Origin: Escherichia coli
GTDB lineage: Bacteria; Pseudomonadota; Gammaproteobacteria; Enterobacterales; Enterobacteriaceae
Strand: one strand, 5' to 3'
NCBI RefSeq assembly: GCF_030013205.1
Contig: NZ_CP122648.1
Length of the DNA: 64,000 nt
A model generated the notes under the pieces. The model saw only the letters and a program-made list of their open reading frames with translations, ran no database searches and was not told the DNA's origin. Every line of letters starts with the position of its first letter. Position 1 is the first letter of the stretch. Of this stretch, positions 1 through 8,322 are shown piece by piece. The translations under genes were made by a program, and so were the position numbers.

Positions 1-1375
1 CCGCTCAGAACTACTCGATTCACGTTTTGGCGCAAAGGCCATTTCTACTATCGCGGAGTCAAAACGATTTCCGCTGCACGAAATGCGCGATGATGTCGCA
101 TTCCAGATTATCAATGATGAATTATATCTTGATGGCAACGCTCGTCAGAACCTGGCCACTTTCTGCCAGACCTGGGACGACGAAAACGTCCATAAATTGA
201 TGGATTTGTCGATCAATAAAAACTGGATCGACAAAGAAGAATATCCGCAATCTGCAGCCATCGACCTGCGTTGCGTAAACATGGTTGCCGATCTGTGGCA
301 TGCGCCTGCGCCGAAAAATGGTCAGGCCGTTGGCACCAACACCATTGGTTCTTCCGAGGCCTGTATGCTCGGCGGGATGGCGATGAAATGGCGTTGGCGC
401 AAGCGTATGGAAGCCGCAGGTAAGCCGACCAACAAACCAAACCTGGTGTGCGGTCCGGTACAAATCTGCTGGCATAAATTCGCCCGCTACTGGGATGTGG
501 AGCTGCGTGAGATCCCTATGCGCCCCGGTCAGTTGTTTATGGACCCGAAACGCATGATTGAAGCCTGCGACGAAAATACCATCGGCGTGGTGCCGACTTT
601 CGGCGTGACCTACACCGGTAACTATGAGTTCCCGCAACCGCTGCACGATGCGCTGGATAAACTCCAGGCCGACACCGGTATCGACATCGACATGCACATC
701 GACGCTGCCAGCGGTGGCTTCCTGGCACCGTTCGTTGCCCCGGATATCGTCTGGGACTTCCGCCTGCCGCGTGTGAAATCGATCAGTGCTTCAGGCCATA
801 AATTCGGTCTGGCTCCGCTGGGCTGCGGCTGGGTTATCTGGCGTGATGAAGAAGCGCTGCCGCAGGAACTGGTGTTCAACGTTGACTACCTCGGTGGTCA
901 GATTGGGACTTTCGCCATCAACTTCTCCCGCCCGGCGGGTCAGGTAATTGCACAGTACTATGAATTCCTGCGCCTTGGTCGTGAAGGCTATACCAAAGTA
1001 CAGAACGCTTCCTACCAGGTTGCCGCTTATCTGGCGGATGAAATCGCCAAACTGGGGCCGTATGAGTTCATCTGTACCGGTCGCCCGGACGAAGGCATCC
1101 CGGCGGTTTGCTTCAAACTGAAAGATGGTGAAGATCCGGGATACACCCTCTACGACCTCTCTGAACGTCTGCGTCTGCGCGGCTGGCAGGTTCCGGCCTT
1201 CACTCTCGGCGGTGAAGCCACCGACATCGTGGTGATGCGCATTATGTGTCGTCGCGGCTTCGAAATGGACTTTGCTGAACTGTTGCTGGAAGACTACAAA
1301 GCCTCCCTGAAATATCTCAGCGACCACCCGAAACTGCAGGGTATTGCCCAGCAGAACAGCTTTAAACATACCTGA
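1..1375 (+). CDS. gadA: glutamate decarboxylase alpha, 5'-truncated by the window edge (reading frame begins at nt 2)
   Basis: ORF translation matches Gad from about residue 10 to the C-terminus (…[18 protein letters not shown]); followed by gadX, which identifies the gadA rather than the gadB copy. Confidence 0.9.
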
Positions 1376-1392
1376 TAACATAACGTTGTAAA

Positions 1393-1440
1393 AACCGAAT
1401 GCCCAACTTTTAAAAAACAGCTGGGCATTCGGTTGCTTAT
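1393..1440 (+). terminator. rho-independent terminator after gadA
   Basis: Inverted repeat aaccgaatgccca…tgggcattcggtt followed by a T-rich run. Confidence 0.5.
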
Positions 1441-1742
1441 TAATCGCAATAATATATTGGCTGTCTATTCATCGTGTTGATAAGATATATGTTATATGAA
1501 TGTTTATTAAATGTGCGATTATATTTAATGTAACGGAAATGGATTATTTGCTTACTATTAATTTCCCTGCGTTCTTAAACACGTTTTTGTATTATAAATC
1601 CAGTCATCCTGCCCGTAGAACATCACACATTATCATCCTGTTCTCCCGCTTCGTTTAAATTTATTTATCAATCAATTTGACTTAAGAGAGCGGCGTGCTA
1701 CATTAATAAACAGTAATATGTTTATGTAATATTAAGTCAACT

Positions 1743-2567
1743 ATGCAATCATTACATGGGAATTGTCTAATTGCGTACGCAAGACATAAATATATTCTCA
1801 CCATGGTTAATGGTGAATATCGCTATTTTAATGGCGGTGATCTGGTTTTTGCGGATGCAAGCCAAATTCAAGTGGATAAGTGTGTTGAGAATTTCGTATT
1901 AGTTTCAAGAGACACGCTTTCATTATTTCTCCCGATGCTCAAGGAGGAGGCATTAAAACTTCATGCACATAAAAAAGTTCCTTCATTACTCGTTCATCAC
2001 TGTACCAGAGATATTCCTGTTTTTCAGGAGGTTGCGCAACTATCGCAGAATAAGAATCTTCGCTATGCAGAAATGCTACGTAAAAGGGCATTAATCTTTG
2101 CGTTGTTATCTGTTTTTCTTGAGGATACGCAGTTTATACCGTTACTTCTGAACGTGTTGCAACCGAATATGCGAACACGAGTTTGTACGGTCATCAATAA
2201 TAATATCGCCCATGAGTGGACATTAGCCCGAATCGCTAGCGAATTGTTGATGAGTCCAAGCCTGTTAAAGAAAAAATTGCGCGAAGAAGGTACGTCATAT
2301 TCACAGTTGCTTACTGAGTGTAGGATGCAGCGTGCTTTACAACTTATTGTTATATATGGGGTTTCAATTAAGAGAGTTGCAGTGTCCTGTGGATATCACA
2401 GCGTGTCGTATTTCATTTACGTCTTTCGAAATTATTATGGGATGACGCCCACAGAGTATCAGGAGCGATCGGCGCAGGGATTGTCGAACCGTGACTCGGC
2501 GGCAAGTATTGTTGCGCAAGGGAATTTTTACGGCACTGACTGTTCTGCGGAAGGAATAAGATTATAG
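1743..2567 (+). CDS. gadX: AraC-family acid-resistance regulator GadX
   Basis: 274 aa ORF with a C-terminal AraC HTH; position between gadA and gadW. Confidence 0.9.
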   Translation: MQSLHGNCLIAYARHKYILTMVNGEYRYFNGGDLVFADASQIQVDKCVENFVLVSRDTLSLFLPMLKEEALKLHAHKKVPSLLVHHCTRDIPVFQEVAQLSQNKNLRYAEMLRKRALIFALLSVFLEDTQFIPLLLNVLQPNMRTRVCTVINNNIAHEWTLARIASELLMSPSLLKKKLREEGTSYSQLLTECRMQRALQLIVIYGVSIKRVAVSCGYHSVSYFIYVFRNYYGMTPTEYQERSAQGLSNRDSAASIVAQGNFYGTDCSAEGIRL

Positions 2568-2583
2568 AGTTTTACTCTGACAT

Positions 2584-2689
2584 AAAAAAAACCCGGCATA
2601 GGGGACCGGGAAGAGGATAGTCTGCCGTCTCCAGACTAATAAACCGTTATAACACTCCCTGTTGGCACGGGAAACTTTGTGCTCTCAGT
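2584..2689 (-). ncRNA. gadY: GadY small RNA, antisense to the gadX 3' end
   Basis: Minus strand reads actgagagcacaaagtttcccgtgccaacagggagtg…ccggtcccctatgccgggtttttttt, which matches the GadY sequence as I recall it and ends in a hairpin plus U-run. Confidence 0.75.
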
Positions 2690-2935
2690 AAGTTAAATAT
2701 AACTTTTACTGGAAATAAGATCAGCCATTTTTTTATAAACATAAGCTATACGCTGTGCGAAAATATATTCGTGTTGCATTTACTTATTATCAATTAACTG
2801 TTATGCAAAACTACTTTGTGGATAAATTTTGGTCCTACCAAATCTGGCAGTTTTTGCGCTAAGAAACAGTCTGGCATCATTTCATTAGTATACTGAAATT
2901 GAAATAATCGCAGTAATGAAATATAAGGGATAGTC

Positions 2936-3664
2936 ATGACTCATGTCTGCTCGGTGATCCTCGTTCGTCGTTCATTCGATATTTATCATGAACAGCAAAA
3001 AATATCGTTGCACAACGAGAGTATCCTGTTACTGGATAAAAATTTGGCAGACGATTTTGCGTTTTGTTCACCGGATACGCGACGACTGGATATCGATGAG
3101 CTGACAGTTTGCCATTACTTACAAAATATTCGTCAGATACCACGCAATTTAGGGTTACATAGCAAAGACCGTCTGTTAATTAACCAGTCACCCCCCATGC
3201 CGCTGGTGACGGCGATTTTTGATAGTTTCAATGACTCCGGGGTAAATTCACCGATACTGAGCAAAATGCTCTATCTTTCCTGTTTATCGATGTTTTCTCA
3301 TAAGAAAGAACTGATCCCCTTACTTTTCAATAGTATCAGTACTGTTTCAGGAAAAGTTGAACGCCTTATTAGCTTTGATATCGCCAAACGTTGGTATCTG
3401 CGCGATATTGCGGAAAGAATGTATACCAGCGAGAGTCTAATCAAAAAAAAGTTGCAGGATGAAAATACCTGTTTCAGTAAAATATTACTCGCCTCCAGGA
3501 TGTCGATGGCCAGACGATTACTCGAGTTACGTCAAATTCCTCTGCATACTATTGCGGAAAAATGTGGCTATAGCAGTACATCGTACTTTATAAACACATT
3601 TCGACAATATTATGGTGTAACGCCACATCAGTTTGCGCAACATTCGCCAGGTACCTTTTCCTGA
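2936..3664 (+). CDS. gadW: AraC-family regulator GadW
   Basis: 242 aa ORF with a C-terminal AraC HTH; conserved position. Confidence 0.9.
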   Translation: MTHVCSVILVRRSFDIYHEQQKISLHNESILLLDKNLADDFAFCSPDTRRLDIDELTVCHYLQNIRQIPRNLGLHSKDRLLINQSPPMPLVTAIFDSFNDSGVNSPILSKMLYLSCLSMFSHKKELIPLLFNSISTVSGKVERLISFDIAKRWYLRDIAERMYTSESLIKKKLQDENTCFSKILLASRMSMARRLLELRQIPLHTIAEKCGYSSTSYFINTFRQYYGVTPHQFAQHSPGTFS

Positions 3665-4026
3665 CATATTTTGCATTTGAATATTGGTCAGGATCTCACA
3701 CCTGCTTCATGTGAAACTCTTCCCTGATGATTTCTGCCGGGCTACCGGCTAGTTCTCTTTCGCAGTTTGCCAGGCGGTATAGGTATTTTCAGGAGGAAAA
3801 GACTCGGCATGTTTGGGATTATTAAGCTGACAATTCATACGATTACGGGAATGTGGGTCAGTATTGTGTTGTTTAAATTGATGACGAATGGCTGGAGTGG
3901 TTTCTACTTTCAGTGCTGTGTACTAAGCCTGGTATTCCTGACGGTTAGCTGGTTGTTGAGTGGTGAATGGTTAGCGGGAAAGAGTAAGGCTGAACCCTCA
4001 CGTTCAACCTTACTCTCATTTACACG

Positions 4027-7000
4027 TTACGCTTTTTTAAAGCGGGCAAAGAGATGTTCCACTACAACGAAAAAGACCGGAACGAAGTAAATTGCCAGCA
4101 CTGTTGCGGCAAACATCCCGCCCATCACGCCGGTACCTACCGCGTTTTGCGCGCCAGAACCGGCACCATGACTGATAACCAGCGGCAGCACGCCGAGAAT
4201 AAAGGCCAGAGAGGTCATCAGGATTGGGCGTAAACGCATCCGCGCCGCTTCGATGATTGCCTCTATCGGCGTTTTCCCTTCTTTCTGCATCATCTCAACG
4301 GCAAATTCGACAATCAGGATGGCGTTCTTGGCGGAAAGCCCGATGGTGGTCAGCAAACCAACCTGGAAGTAGACGTCATTACTTAAGCCGCGTAGATCGG
4401 TGGCCAGTAATGCGCCAACGACGCCTAACGGTACAACCAACATCACCGAGAACGGAATTGACCAGCTCTCATAAAGTGCGGCGAGGGCGAGGAACACCAC
4501 GACCAGTGAAATGGCATACAGCGCGGGAGCCTGATTTGAGGATAACGCTTCCTGATACGACAGTCCGGTCCATGAGTAGCCGACGCCTGCCGGAAGTTTA
4601 GCGACCAGGTCTGCCATAAATTTCATGGCGTCACCGGTACTTTTCCCGGCCGCCGCTTCACCTAAAATCTCCATTGACGGGATGCCGTTGTAGCGTTCCA
4701 GTCGCGGTGAACCATAGGTCCATTCGGTAGACGAATAGGCAGAAAGCGGTGCCATCGTGCCAGAGGCGTTGCGTACATACCATTGGTTGATGTTATCCGG
4801 CAACATACGGAACGGCGTGCCTGCCTGGACATACACTTTTTTCACCCGCCCCTGGTTGAGGAAGTCGTTCACGTAGCTGCTGCCGAAGGCGGTGGAAATT
4901 GTCTGGTTGATATCAGACAGCGCCACGCCCATCGCTTCAGCTTTCGCGGCGTTGACGTTCACTTTGAACATCGGCGTATCTTCCAGTCCGTTCGGACGTA
5001 CCCCGGTGACTTGATTCGGTGATTGCGCTGCCAGTGATAATAGCTCGTTTCGCGCCTGGGTCAGTTTTTCGTGCCCCAGGTTGCCGTTGTCCAGCAGTTC
5101 CATATCAAAACCTGACGCGGTACCCAGTTCAGCCACCGCGGGTAAGTTGAACGGGAAGACGACGGCTTTATTGATACTGCTTAACGCAATCATTGCCCGC
5201 TGAATGATCGCGGTAACCGAGTTTTCCTCACCGACACGTTCAGACCACGGCTTGAGACTGATAAACGCCAGACCGTTGTTTTGCCCCTGGCCGCTGAAGC
5301 CAAAGCCGCCAACGGTAAACACCGACTGAACATTATCTTTCTCTTTAGTCAGATAATAATCCGTCACCTGTTGCAGCACTTTCGTGGTGTTAACCATGGT
5401 GGCACCGGAAGGTAACTGCGCGGTGGTCATAAATACCCCCTGATCCTCTTCTGGTAAGAAAGAGGTCGGCGTACGCAGGAACAGCACCGCCATCCCAGCG
5501 CAAATCAGCAGGTAGACCACCATGTAGCGACCGGTACAACGCAACAGCGAGCGGGTGCTGTCGGTATAGTGCTGAGTTGATTTTTCAAACAGCGTGTTGA
5601 AGCGTGCGAACAGGGCGTTAGGTTTATGACCGCCTTCCGGCGCGGCTTTCAGAATGGTGGCGCACAGGGCAGGGGTCAGGCTCATTGCCACAAATACTGA
5701 AAGCAGCATGGAGGAGATCAGCGTGATGGAGAACTGGCGGTAGATCTCCCCGGTTGCACCGCTCATAAAGGCCATCGGCATAAACACTGCGGAAAGAACA
5801 ACGGCAATCCCGACCAGCGCACGTTGGATCTGCCCCATCGATTTATGCGTCGCTTCCTTCGGCGGTAGCTTATCTTCCGCAATGACACGCTCGACGTTCT
5901 CCACCACCACGATGGCGTCATCCACCAGTAACCCTATCGCCAGCACCATCCCGAACATAGTTAACGTGTTGATGGTGAAACCGACCGCCGACAAGATCGC
6001 AAACGTCCCGAGAATAACCACCGGTACGGCAATCGTCGGGATGATTGTGGCACGGAAATTCTGCAAAAACAGATACATGACCAGGAAGACGAGGATGATA
6101 GCCTCAACCAGTGTTTTGAAAACTTCCTGAATAGAAATTTCGATAAACGGCGTGGTGTCGTAAGGATAAACCGTCTTCAGACTTGCCGGGAAATAGGCTG
6201 ATAAGCGGTTCAGTTCCTCTTTGACTGCCCGCGAGGTATCCAGGGCGTTTGCTCCGGCAGCCAGTTTGATGGCGATCCCGGCAGCAGGTTTGCCGTTATA
6301 GCGCGCCACGGTGGAATAATCTTCCGCCCCAAGTTCGACGCGGGCGACATCACGCAGCAGCACTTGCGAACCATCTTGCTGAACTTTCAACAGGATTTTG
6401 CCAAATTCTTCCGGCGTTTGCAGACGCGTCTGCACAATGATCGAGGCGTTTAGTTGCTGGTCTGCCGCCTGTGGCATGCCACCCAGTTGACCACCGGAAA
6501 TCTGGTTGTTTTGCACCTTAATCTGGGAAATAACATCGGAAGGTACCAGATTGTATTTATTGAGTTTTTGCGGGTCCAGCCAGATACGCATGGCGTACTC
6601 GGAACCAAAGAGCTGTACGCTACCAACGCCCGCGGTACGGCTTAGCGGGTCTTTGATATTAGACGCTACATAGTCCGCGATATCGTACTGGTTGAGGCTG
6701 CCGTTATCAGAAATAAACGCCGCTACCATCAGAATATTACTGCTCGACTTATCAACGCTAATCCCCTGCTGCTGCACCGCTTCAGGTAATGAAGGCATAG
6801 CGAGTTGCAGTTTATTTTGCACCTGAACCTGTGCGATATCAGGAGATGTCCCAGTCTCGAAGGTCAGAGTGATAGAGGCATTACCCGCCGCATCACTGGT
6901 TGAAGACATGTACATCAGGCCATCAAGCCCATTCATATTTTGCTCAATCACCTGAGTGACCGAGTCTTCTACCGTTTGCGCATCGGCACCTGGATAGGTA

Positions 7001-7140
7001 GCGCTGACGGTAATGGTCGGTGGCGCAATCTGCGGATACTGCGCAACCGGTAAGTTCATGATCGCCAGACCACCTGCAAGCATCATAATAATGGCAAGTA
7101 CCCAGGCAAAAACCGGGCGATCAATAAAATAGTTAGCCAT
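4027..7140 (-). CDS. mdtF: RND multidrug efflux pump, inner-membrane subunit
   Basis: 1037 aa ORF of AcrB/RND type, starting [17 protein letters not shown]. Confidence 0.92.
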
Positions 7141-7164: not shown

Positions 7165-8322
7165 TTATTGTTTCGATTCGGTGCTGGCGTTTTCCTGGCT
7201 GGAGGAAATTGCTCGTGCTTTGATACCCGGACGAATGCGTTGCAAACCGGAAACGATCACCCGATCGCCAGCCTGCAAGCCAGAGGTGACAACCCACTGG
7301 TCGCCGATGGCTTTGCTGGCTTCGATTTCGCGTAGCTGCACGACATCGTCTTTATCCAGAATGAGCGCCGTTGCTTTACCCTGGGCGTTGTGGGTGACGC
7401 CTTCCTGCGGCACCAGTAATACATTCTGGCGGCTACCTTCATCCACTAATGCCGTAACGTACATGCCAGGCAGCAAGTCACCATTTGGGTTGGGGAAAAT
7501 CGCCCGTAACGTCACGGAGCCCGTGGTTTCATCCACCGTCGGGTCGGAGAATTTCAGCGTGCCGGTCTGGCTGTAACGTTTACCATTTTCCAGATTGAGC
7601 TGTACTGGCGTACTGCCCTGAACCTGTTTGATTTGCCCACTGGCGACCTCTTCTTTCATACGCAAGAAATCCTGCACCGACTGCGTGAGATCGACATAAA
7701 TCGGGTCCAGACGTTGTACGGTAACCAGCGAATCTGCCTGATTAGCGGTAACGAGTGCGCCGACGGTCACCGACGATTTCCCGCTGACGCCCGTAATCGG
7801 CGAGGTGACATTCGCGTATTGCAAATTGATCGTCGCCTGTTCAACAGCCGCTTTGGCGACGGTGACATTGGCTTCTGCTTCATTCAGCTGGGTGCGCGCG
7901 GTGTCGTAATCCTGACGGCTAACGTAGTTGGTCTTCAGCAACGATGCCTGGCGGTTAAAGGTGATGCGGGCATTGCTGGCGGTAGAGAGCGCTTTCGCCA
8001 GCGTGCCTTTGGCGGAGTTCAGCTCGGCCTGTAAAGGTGCAGGATCAATCTGATACAGCGAATCGCCCTGGTTCACTTTATCGCCTTCGATAAAGTTGCG
8101 TTTAATGATAATACCGCCAACCTGGGGACGTATCTCGGCAACTTCATAAGGAACGGTTCTACCGGGCAATTCGCTCAATACATTGACCGAACCGGGGGAG
8201 AGTGTGACGACACCGACCTCAGGCGTCATGGCGGCGGCGTTTTCCGCCGATTTGTCATCGCAGGCGGTGAGCATCGCGCCGCAGAATAACAACGGTATTA
8301 ACAGCTTTCTTCTTCTGTTCAT
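7165..8322 (-). CDS. mdtE: RND efflux periplasmic adaptor (membrane fusion protein)
   Basis: 385 aa ORF with lipoprotein signal LTAC; AcrA-like; upstream of mdtF. Confidence 0.92.
   Translation of the reverse strand: MNRRRKLLIPLLFCGAMLTACDDKSAENAAAMTPEVGVVTLSPGSVNVLSELPGRTVPYEVAEIRPQVGGIIIKRNFIEGDKVNQGDSLYQIDPAPLQAELNSAKGTLAKALSTASNARITFNRQASLLKTNYVSRQDYDTARTQLNEAEANVTVAKAAVEQATINLQYANVTSPITGVSGKSSVTVGALVTANQADSLVTVQRLDPIYVDLTQSVQDFLRMKEEVASGQIKQVQGSTPVQLNLENGKRYSQTGTLKFSDPTVDETTGSVTLRAIFPNPNGDLLPGMYVTALVDEGSRQNVLLVPQEGVTHNAQGKATALILDKDDVVQLREIEASKAIGDQWVVTSGLQAGDRVIVSGLQRIRPGIKARAISSSQENASTESKQ

What the first reader, a model, noticed from the sequence alone, without database searches (positions are those of the whole stretch)
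3809..4090. Unannotated small membrane-protein candidate between gadW and mdtF
An ATG at 3809, preceded by aggagg at 3791-3796, opens a 93-codon ORF with two hydrophobic helices (MFGIIKLTIHTITGMWVSIVLFKL…YFQCCVLSLVFLTVSWLLSG). Its 3' end overlaps the convergent mdtF 3' end by about 64 nt. It may well be spurious, but the strong SD and the membrane-like composition merit a ribosome-profiling check.
Basis: seen in the sequence. Interest (0 to 1): 0.25.

Follow-up and report, generated by a model that had tools for sequence, protein, structure and literature searches.

The report
Acid-induced small membrane protein after gadW
The open reading frame is a real, conserved gene for a small two-helix membrane protein made under acid stress, but it was already published in 2023 as "sORF15" and is only missing from the standard genome annotation.

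Summary
In detail: ATG 3809, AGGAGG 3791-3796, a 93-codon ORF ending at 4090, two hydrophobic helices, and a 64-nt overlap with the convergent mdtF.

The ORF is not spurious, and it is not new. It is exactly "sORF15" of Schumacher et al. 2023 (mSystems, PMC10746267; K-12 complement 3663464..3663745). That study found it in the gadW 3' UTR by ribosome profiling. Footprints rose about 18-fold at pH 4.4, two TM helices were predicted, and a FLAG-tagged product was seen on a Western blot. RefSeq still does not annotate it.

New here:
- The 93-codon frame is intact without indels in eight Escherichia genomes (six species-level representatives from a GTDB scan, including E. albertii, plus this window and K-12).
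- dN/dS is 0.03-0.17 over codons 1-56, the same range as gadW. The other two frames give about 0.3-4.
- E. fergusonii has a 54-aa orthologue (49% identity) in the same gadW / ORF / mdtF position. It stops just after helix 2.

So the selected unit is the ~55-aa helical hairpin. The basic tail (residues 57-93) lies over the mdtF 3' hairpin and antisense mdtF codons, whose wobble positions coincide with its own. Its conservation may therefore be a by-product.

Function is untested. The most likely role is a partner of a larger acid-island membrane protein.

The parts
2936..3664 (+). gadW, the upstream gene of the same transcription unit
   Evidence: 242-aa ORF, annotated as gadW in RefSeq records. 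Schumacher 2023 place sORF15 in the gadW 3' UTR and transcription unit.
3665..3808 (+). Spacer between gadW and the small gene. No sigma-70-like promoter was found on this strand. It contains the published 13-aa candidate sORF14 (3711-3752) and a 5-bp GC hairpin (3736-3749).
   Evidence: The promoter scan found none on the + strand and one terminator-like hairpin at 3736-3749. The spacer differs by about 25% from the four most distant aligned genomes (E69/L005, E. whittamii, E1V33, E. albertii), against 13-17% for codons 1-56. sORF14 loses its start, stop or frame in most species.
3784..3800 (+). Ribosome-binding region TATTTTCAGGAGGAAAA, with the AGGAGG core at 3791-3796
   Evidence: 16 of the 17 positions (3785-3800, including AGGAGG) are invariant in all 8 aligned Escherichia genomes and 3784 differs only in E. 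albertii, while neighbouring spacer sequence varies. The local fold is no more stable than shuffles, z +0.20.
3809..3976 (+). Conserved core of the gene, codons 1-56. Helix 1 spans about residues 2-26, the short loop is TNGWSG, and helix 2 spans about residues 32-56.
   Evidence: dN/dS 0.03-0.17. Variable columns by codon position are 17/9/34. The other two frames give 0.27-3.9. Binomial P for synonymous excess is 2e-9 against E. albertii. The E. fergusonii 54-aa orthologue covers just this part. AF2 predicts helices 2-26 and 32-56.
3977..4090 (+). C-terminal tail, codons 57-93 plus the stop. It is basic, lineage-specific, and laid over other functional sequence.
   Evidence: Absent in E. fergusonii. 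dN/dS is 0-0.98 in codons 57-72. A 1-nt deletion in GGAAAG gives 76-aa variants in some assemblies. One metagenome allele has a 5-codon in-frame deletion. AF2 pLDDT is 37-59 here.
3980..4017 (-). mdtF 3' stem-loop (16 bp), crossed by codons 58-70 of the small gene
   Evidence: -27.1 kcal/mol on the minus strand (z -6.4) against -21.1 on the plus strand. It is conserved in 8 species, 4-7 kcal/mol more stable in the mdtF sense in each, with one compensatory double change in E1V33.
4027..4090 (-). 3' end of mdtF (its last 21 codons plus the stop), overlapped antisense by codons 73-93 of the small gene
   Evidence: Coordinates are. Third codon positions of both genes fall on the same bases (4030, 4033...). 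All 5-6 variable sites here are at that position and are synonymous in the small gene, and the printed MdtF C-terminal residues are unchanged.

Best explanation
3809-4090 is a real protein-coding gene, the published but unannotated sORF15.

It is transcribed as the distal part of the gadW mRNA. It is translated from its own Shine-Dalgarno sequence when the Gad regulon is induced by severe acid stress.

The product is a small inner-membrane protein that forms a two-helix hairpin. By the positive-inside rule, both termini face the cytoplasm and the loop TNGWSG faces the periplasm.

The part that selection maintains is the ~55-residue hairpin. In the E. coli/E. albertii lineage the frame runs on for 37 more codons. 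It crosses the mdtF 3' stem-loop and the antisense of the last mdtF codons, giving a basic tail. That tail's conservation is largely dictated by mdtF and by the RNA hairpin.

Shown: the gene exists, is translated, is acid-induced, and is under purifying selection.

Inferred: co-transcription with gadW, the topology, and the view that the tail is incidental.

Most likely function (inference, about 25% for the specific partner): like other small hydrophobic proteins, it binds and tunes a larger membrane protein of the acid-fitness island. The adjacent RND pump MdtF is the first candidate and the antiporter GadC the second.
For: Identity with sORF15:
- Same K-12 coordinates (3663464-3663745, minus strand) and the same sequence apart from R65C.

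Published evidence:
- Even Ribo-seq coverage.
- RIBO log2FC +4.21 (padj 1e-38) and RNA +4.03 at pH 4.4; GadW RIBO +3.03.
- Two TM helices predicted at over 90%.
- 3xFLAG Western blot.

Evolution:
- 93 codons with no indel in 8 Escherichia genomes.
- dN/dS 0.03-0.17 for codons 1-56, against 0.06-0.13 for gadW.
- dS to E. albertii is 1.04 with dN 0.048.
- 46 of 52 loci are intact; the protein is identical in four further complete genomes, three of them from hits 97.6-98.0% identical over the 551-nt query.

E. fergusonii orthologue:
- 54 aa, 49% identity, HMM E-value 1e-7 against 1.84 billion proteins.
- Same gadW / ORF / mdtF order, with a 19-nt gap after gadW.
- Synonymous sites are saturated (pS 0.97) while pN is 0.30.

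Transcription:
- No promoter-like site on this strand.
- A Rho-dependent termination region is mapped at K-12 3663625 (minus strand), in a table scored from 800-nt windows either side of each position. This fits a gadW read-through transcript that lacks an intrinsic terminator.
Against: - No native, untagged or chromosomally tagged protein has been shown. The Western blot used a pBAD plasmid.
- No phenotype or binding partner is known.
- The SD-to-ATG spacing of 12 nt is long.
- Co-transcription with gadW rests on RNA-seq coverage reported by others and on the absence of a promoter match, not on a mapped transcript.
- A terminator-like GC hairpin (3736-3749) lies between gadW and the gene.
- The E. 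fergusonii orthologue has no clear SD and an uncertain GTG start.
- The MdtF or GadC partner idea rests only on adjacency and analogy.
Confidence: 0.88

Rival explanations
1. The ORF is a chance frame in the long gadW 3' UTR. The footprints are pervasive, non-productive translation, and the sequence is conserved for an RNA-level role.
For: An ORF of this length arises in 1.5% of shuffles. Longer spurious ORFs exist antisense to mdtF and mdtE. The 3' third is constrained by the mdtF hairpin and mdtF codons. RefSeq does not call it.
Against: Substitutions are concentrated at codon position 3 (17/9/34) and dN/dS is 0.03-0.17 in this frame only. The E. fergusonii copy keeps the reading frame, the hydrophobic hairpin and the GWSGF.F.CC motif at 55% nucleotide identity. 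Rfam gives nothing. A tagged protein was detected.
Confidence: 0.03
2. The act of translating the ORF is what matters, not the peptide. Ribosomes on it would shield the gadW transcript from Rho, or affect pairing and collision with the convergent mdtF mRNA, and so tune gadW or mdtF expression.
For: A Rho termination region is mapped inside or near the ORF in LB. The transcript must run antisense into mdtF across its 3' hairpin. The neighbouring GadY/gadX-gadW region is known, from my own knowledge of Opdyke et al. 2004, to use antisense RNA processing.
Against: A purely cis-acting ORF would not keep its amino-acid sequence. Here dN is 20 times lower than dS to E. albertii. The E. fergusonii gene does not overlap mdtF or its hairpin at all, yet keeps the hairpin protein. 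This role could coexist with a functional protein.
Confidence: 0.06
3. It is a toxic small membrane peptide of the type I toxin kind, which depolarises the membrane when expressed.
For: It is small and very hydrophobic, is expressed only under stress, and part of its mRNA is complementary to another transcript (mdtF 3' end).
Against: No match to any Pfam family at E<=10, which includes the Hok, Ldr, TisB and Ibs families. It has two helices rather than one. It is single-copy with fixed synteny in a regulon. The complementary RNA covers the 3' end, not the start region. Induced expression from pBAD24 gave a detectable product, although growth effects were not reported in the text I read.
Confidence: 0.03

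Closest known systems
sORF15 of Schumacher et al. 2023 (mSystems 8:e01037-23, PMC10746267)
   Same: The same ORF. K-12 coordinates 3663464-3663745 (minus strand) map exactly onto window 3809-4090. The 93-aa sequence is identical except R65 here against C65 in K-12.
   Different: Nothing biological; the window is simply another E. coli strain. That paper gave expression evidence and BLAST hits only. The selection analysis, the E. fergusonii short form and the anatomy of the tail are added here.
AcrZ, the 49-aa partner of the RND pump AcrB
   Same: A small hydrophobic inner-membrane protein encoded in E. coli, co-regulated with an RND efflux system. By my own knowledge AcrZ binds the AcrB transmembrane domain. 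AcrZ also pulled down MdtF in a cell-free study.
   Different: No sequence similarity (no Pfam hit). Two helices instead of one. Encoded next to the pump but on the opposite strand, and in the regulator's transcript. Binding to MdtF is untested.
Other unannotated or recently annotated E. coli small membrane proteins found by ribosome profiling (Weaver et al. 2019 type)
   Same: Found by Ribo-seq, hydrophobic, stress-induced, and located at the end of an operon.
   Different: At 93 aa it is above the usual 50-aa cut-off, which is why automated filters missed it. Its 3' third overlaps a convergent gene.
Membrane proteins of the acid-fitness island (HdeD, YhiD)
   Same: Same island, same acid and stationary-phase regulon, inner-membrane location.
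   Different: No homology (Pfam and NCBIfam empty). Much smaller.

Membership tests
sORF15 (published candidate gene) | Same genomic position and sequence as NC_000913.3:3663464-3663745 (minus strand) | tested here: met
   The alignment with K-12 places ATG 3809 at 3663745 and stop end 4090 at 3663464. Table S7 gives the same coordinates and peptide.
Genuine protein-coding gene | Reading frame kept open, without indels, in related species | tested here: met
   93 codons in 8 of 8 aligned Escherichia genomes. 46 of 52 loci intact.
Genuine protein-coding gene | Frame-specific excess of synonymous change (dN/dS well below 1) | tested here: met
   0.03-0.17 for codons 1-56, with the other frames at 0.27-3.9. 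P=2e-9 against E. albertii. The result is inconclusive for codons 57-93, where the mdtF and hairpin constraints confound it.
Genuine protein-coding gene | Ribosome footprints and a detectable product | not testable with these tools
   Taken from the literature: Ribo-seq coverage and a 3xFLAG Western blot from pBAD24. The native protein has not been shown.
Two-pass small inner-membrane protein | Two hydrophobic segments of about 20 residues, a short loop, and positive charges on the cytoplasmic side | tested here: met
   KD peaks of 1.68 and 1.95; tail with 11 K/R. AF2 helices 2-26 and 32-56. DeepTMHMM over 90% in the paper. Actual membrane insertion is untested.
AcrZ family | Sequence match to the AcrZ Pfam family; a single TM helix | tested here: not met
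   No Pfam family at E<=10. Two helices.
AcrZ-like function (RND pump accessory protein) | Physical binding to the pump's transmembrane domain and an effect on substrate range | not testable with these tools
   Only adjacency to mdtF, conserved in all 9 loci including E. fergusonii.
Type I toxins (Hok, Ldr, TisB, Ibs, ShoB) | Match to a toxin family, plus an antisense RNA covering the translation start | tested here: not met
   No Pfam hit. No Rfam hit in 3500-4200. The only complementary transcript covers the 3' end.

The most novel reading that the evidence does not exclude
The conserved ~55-residue hairpin may be a dedicated subunit or regulator of the MdtEF-TolC pump (or of GadC), supplied by the regulator's own mRNA only at low pH, so linking acid resistance to efflux. 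The 37-residue basic tail of the E. coli form may be a recent overprinted extension. It would have arisen by reading through the mdtF 3' hairpin into antisense mdtF, in the one phase where the wobble positions of both genes coincide.
Probability: 0.2. Interest if true: 0.5.

Novelty: already known. Interest (0 to 1): 0.25.

Why it matters
The acid-fitness island is one of the most studied stress loci of E. coli, yet this gene is absent from MG1655 RefSeq and from every PGAP record sampled. Knock-out, proteomic and transcript analyses of gadW and mdtF therefore ignore it. A gadW deletion or a polar insertion would also remove or silence it, which could confound published gadW phenotypes.

The selection evidence given here is the argument that curators usually need to add a gene. 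It also tells experimenters that the first 56 residues are the part to tag and mutate, not the C terminus. Beyond that, the finding is an incremental confirmation of a published candidate.

Tried and rejected
- **Rfam.** Search of 3500-4200 at E<=10 gave only two chance eukaryotic hits.
- **Protein families.** Pfam and NCBIfam searches of the 93-aa, 107-aa and E. fergusonii proteins found nothing.
- **Own promoter.** No sigma-70-like match on the + strand in 3400-4300. I inspected 3750-3790 by eye and found only hexamers with impossible spacing.
- **Upstream in-frame TTG at 3767 (107-aa form).** Rejected. TTG is TCG in L005, and the substitutions in that stretch change the encoded residues.
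- **sORF14 (3711-3752) as a conserved leader peptide.** Rejected. Its start, stop or frame is lost in most species.
- **An RNA structure hiding the SD and AUG.** CUCUUCC at 3717-3724 could pair with GGAGGAAAAG, and CAUGUG with GGCAUG. This pairing appears in every single-sequence fold. However, the fold is no more stable than shuffles (z +0.86), no pair shows a compensatory change, and the covariation term is unfavourable. Not supported.
- **The 3736-3749 hairpin as an efficient gadW terminator.** Weak (z -1.5). It also conflicts with the RNA and footprint coverage reported downstream.
- **Fold search with the AF2 model.** Not run. Mean pLDDT is 62, and a two-helix hairpin would give meaningless matches.
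- **Follow-up papers on sORF15, or papers citing its coordinates.** None found.
- **Published claim of >80% identical homologues in Vibrio, Klebsiella, Salmonella and Enterococcus.** Not reproduced. The GadW-anchored scan of 100,044 species genomes found the locus only in Escherichia. The exhaustive HMM search found 19 proteins. All but the E. fergusonii orthologue are copies, fragments or frameshifted forms of the E. coli-type sequence; their source organisms were not checked. Those hits are probably mislabelled or contaminated records (inference).
Full report
**1. What is in the sequence**

The window carries the E. coli acid-fitness island in the orientation opposite to K-12. The genes are gadX (1743-2567, +), gadW (2936-3664, +), mdtF (4027-7140, -) and mdtE (7165-8322, -).

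All elements of the finding are present:
- AGGAGG at 3791-3796.
- ATG at 3809.
- An open frame of 93 codons ending with TAA at 4088-4090.
- An exact 64-nt overlap with the 3' end of mdtF.

The SD-to-ATG gap is 12 nt. From my own knowledge this is at the long end of what E. coli uses.

The protein has two hydrophobic segments, with Kyte-Doolittle peaks at residues 4-22 and 32-50. Its tail carries 11 K/R and 2 D/E.

ORF length by itself is weak evidence. 1.5% of dinucleotide shuffles of the region give an ORF this long. The window also holds longer, obviously spurious ORFs antisense to mdtF and mdtE.

**2. Annotation status**

A megablast of 3600-4150 against 5,426 complete E. coli genomes finds the stretch in 5,414. 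All matches are at least 95% identical. Every one of the 30 sampled rows has only gadW and mdtF annotated under the match. The curated MG1655 record has nothing between mdtF (b3514) and gadW (b3515).

Gene callers sometimes predict the ORF. The protein database holds 43 related entries, and the named ones are "hypothetical protein" from Escherichia.

**3. It is already published**

Schumacher et al. [quoted passage not shown] Their Table S7 gives NC_000913.3:3663464-3663745 (minus strand) and the peptide MFGIIKLTIHTITGMWVSIV....

My alignment of the window with K-12 puts ATG 3809 at 3663745 and base 4090 at 3663464. It is therefore the same ORF. The only protein difference is R65 here against C65 in K-12.

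They report the following:
- Even footprint coverage over the ORF.
- RIBO log2FC +4.21 (padj 1.1e-38) and RNA log2FC +4.03 at pH 4.4 versus 7.6.
- No induction at pH 5.8.
- GadW RIBO log2FC +3.03.
- Two TM helices at over 90% probability (DeepTMHMM).
- A possible third helix by ColabFold.
- A Western blot of a 3xFLAG fusion expressed from pBAD24 with 15 nt of native upstream sequence.

They suggest an association with GadC or MdtF. I found no follow-up work.

**4. Conservation, tested here**

A scan of one genome per GTDB species, anchored on GadW rather than on the ORF so as not to favour intact copies, returned the locus from six Escherichia lineages, out to E. albertii. Together with the window and K-12, all eight genomes have a 93-codon frame without a single indel.

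Nei-Gojobori estimates for codons 1-56:

| Measure | Result |
|---|---|
| dN/dS, proposed frame | 0.03-0.17 |
| dS / dN to E. albertii | 1.04 / 0.048 |
| dN/dS, other two frames | 0.27-3.9 |
| Variable columns by codon position | 17 / 9 / 34 |
| Binomial P, synonymous excess vs E. albertii | 2e-9 (3e-5 under a deliberately generous null) |
| dN/dS, gadW, same genome pairs | 0.06-0.13 |
| dN/dS, last 300 codons of mdtF | about 0.01 |

A DNA-pattern scan of metagenome contigs added 40 loci. Of 52 loci in total, 46 carry an intact 93-codon gene, in 23 nucleotide haplotypes. The rest look like contig ends or chimeric junctions and were not inspected individually, plus one in-frame 5-codon deletion in the tail.

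Four further complete genomes all encode the same protein as the window; three of them come from hits 97.6-98.0% identical to the 551-nt query and one (O157, 99.1%) is closer. One O121 strain has an IS66 element inserted at about codon 14.

The ribosome-binding block TATTTTCAGGAGGAAAA is invariant in all eight apart from its first base in E. albertii (C for T at 3784). The spacer upstream differs by about 25% between the window and the four most distant genomes. The in-frame TTG at 3767 is not conserved, so ATG 3809 is the start.

**5. A distant orthologue defines the functional unit**

I searched a profile of residues 1-62 exhaustively against 1.84 billion representative proteins. It found 19 proteins. 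Eighteen are copies, fragments or frameshifted forms of the E. coli-type sequence.

The exception is P0048, a 54-aa protein: MIVGIIKLALLGITAISVCMVLLNLILHGWSGFFFHCCLICLGLLASCLVVNKN. It is 49% identical over 41 residues.

P0048 comes from E. fergusonii ATCC 35469. There it sits 19 nt after a GadW orthologue (62% identity) and converges on mdtF, with mdtE, gadE and hdeD following.

Between E. coli and E. fergusonii the core is only 55% identical in DNA. Synonymous sites are saturated (pS 0.97) while pN is 0.30. Differences by codon position are 20/9/36.

The E. fergusonii protein ends three residues after helix 2. It does not reach the mdtF terminator or mdtF itself. So the unit kept throughout the genus is the two-helix hairpin with the loop motif (N/H)GWSGF(Y/F)F.CC.

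Whether the tail was gained in the E. coli/E. albertii lineage or lost in E. fergusonii cannot be decided without an outgroup. None exists in the databases searched.

**6. Anatomy of the tail**

*The hairpin.* Codons 58-70 run across a 16-bp stem-loop at 3980-4017.
- It is much more stable in the mdtF sense (-27.1 kcal/mol, z -6.4) than in the sense of the small gene (-21.1). A C-A mismatch on the plus strand is a G-U pair on the minus strand.
- The hairpin is kept in all eight species. E1V33 has one compensatory double change, and the minus strand is 4-7 kcal/mol more stable in every case.
- It is therefore the mdtF 3' stem-loop, acting as a terminator or mRNA stabiliser.

*The mdtF overlap.* Codons 73-93 are the antisense of the last mdtF codons.
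- The two frames are in the phase where third codon positions coincide (4030, 4033, ...).
- All 5-6 variable sites in the overlap are at that shared position and are synonymous for the small gene. The MdtF C-terminal residues printed for all six species are unchanged.
- Conservation of the tail is therefore what the mdtF and RNA constraints alone would produce.

*Signs that the tail is not selected.*
- In codons 57-72, dN/dS is 0-0.98.
- A 1-nt deletion in GGAAAG yields a 76-aa form with a different tail in about 20 contigs. Some of these are from error-prone assemblies in which gadW and mdtF are also broken. Others have both neighbours intact.
- AlphaFold2 gives helices 2-26, 32-56 and 65-87. 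Mean pLDDT is 62, and confidence falls to 37-59 in the tail.

**7. Expression architecture (partly inferred)**

- No sigma-70-like promoter is found on the plus strand between gadW and the gene.
- The E. fergusonii gene follows gadW by 19 nt.
- The published RNA-seq shows the region as part of the gadW transcript.
- A weak GC hairpin at 3736-3749 (z -1.5) lies in between. It evidently does not stop all transcription.
- On the plus strand no U-tract follows the mdtF hairpin.
- Adams et al. 2021 list a Rho-dependent termination region at K-12 3663625 (minus strand), classed as "orphan". Read counts were 100/25 without and 415/267 with bicyclomycin; the Rho score was 2.57, p 2.9e-5, scored from 800-nt windows either side of the position. 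This fits a read-through transcript that is ended by Rho around or after the small gene when it is poorly translated in neutral LB.
- An appealing SD-masking structure appears in all single-sequence folds. It has no statistical or covariation support, so I do not claim it.

**8. What it most likely does**

Shown: a translated, acid-induced gene under purifying selection, encoding a very hydrophobic two-helix protein restricted to Escherichia and fixed between gadW and mdtF.

Inferred: membrane insertion with both ends in the cytoplasm (positive-inside rule), and action through binding a larger membrane protein, as is usual for small hydrophobic proteins.

MdtF is the first candidate partner. 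It is adjacent in all nine loci, and there is the AcrZ-AcrB precedent; AcrZ itself pulled down MdtF in a cell-free study. GadC is the second candidate. I put about 25% on a specific MdtF or GadC role.

The protein is not a member of the AcrZ family or of any type I toxin family.

**9. Verdict**

The feature is already known from the literature, although it is still unannotated.

The new contributions are:
- frame-specific selection evidence;
- the short E. fergusonii orthologue;
- the demonstration that the last third of the E. coli ORF rides on mdtF sequence;
- the lack of conservation of the companion candidate sORF14.

Interest is low to moderate.

Noticed in passing
window 3711-3752 (+): The companion published candidate sORF14 (13 aa, GTG start) shows no coding conservation. 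The start is GTA in L005, the stop is lost in 5 of 8 genomes (it is kept only in the window and K-12), E. whittamii has a premature stop, and E69 and E. albertii have frame-changing indels.
   Followed up: yes
window 3686-3696 (+): An 11-nt block, GGTCAGGATCT, in the gadW 3' UTR is invariant in eight Escherichia genomes, while the surrounding spacer differs by about 25% from the four most distant of them. Its GUCA can pair with UGAC at the gadW stop codon, and the helix is longer in E. whittamii, E1V33 and E69. Its function is unexplained. It contains a GGA motif.
   Followed up: partly
window 3980-4017 (-): The mdtF 3' stem-loop is 4-7 kcal/mol more stable on the mdtF strand in all eight species and shows one compensatory double change. 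Its U-tract (UUUCCC) is poor for an intrinsic terminator.
   Followed up: yes
window 4027-4090: The antisense overlap with mdtF is in the phase where both genes' third codon positions coincide. Every variable site there (5-6) is at the shared wobble position and is synonymous for the small gene, and the MdtF C-terminal residues printed for the six species are unchanged.
   Followed up: yes
L051 (NZ_CP119441.1, E. coli O121 strain 201805972), about locus 2990-3010: An IS66-family element, with an IS1 next to it, is inserted at about codon 14 of the small gene and separates it from gadW. This is the only large disruption seen among the sampled hits. Across all 5,426 complete genomes, 5,407 of the 5,414 with a match have at least 80% coverage in one piece.
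   Followed up: partly
L056-L061, equivalent to window 3978-3982: A 1-nt deletion in the run GGAAAG shifts the frame after codon 57 and gives a 76-aa protein ending before mdtF. It is found in about 20 contigs on a K-12-like background. At least one assembly also has broken gadW and mdtF, so some cases may be sequencing errors.
   Followed up: partly
L055 (E. fergusonii CU928158.2) 1-6000: In E. fergusonii the gadW-like gene is preceded by a divergent second AraC-family gene and a histidine-acid-phosphatase gene rather than by gadX and gadA. GadW is only 62% identical to the E. coli protein. The island is arranged differently there.
   Followed up: no
K-12 3663625 (minus strand), equivalent to about window 3929: A published Rho-dependent termination region (Adams et al. 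2021, Supplementary file 2) is classed as "orphan" because no gene is annotated there. It falls inside this gene.
   Followed up: partly
literature, PMC10746267 Fig. S9C: The paper's statement that sORF15 has >80% identical homologues in Vibrio, Klebsiella, Salmonella and Enterococcus was not reproduced. The species-representative genome scan found the locus only in Escherichia, and the exhaustive profile search returned only E. coli-type sequences plus the E. fergusonii orthologue; the sources of most of those hits were not checked.
   Followed up: partly
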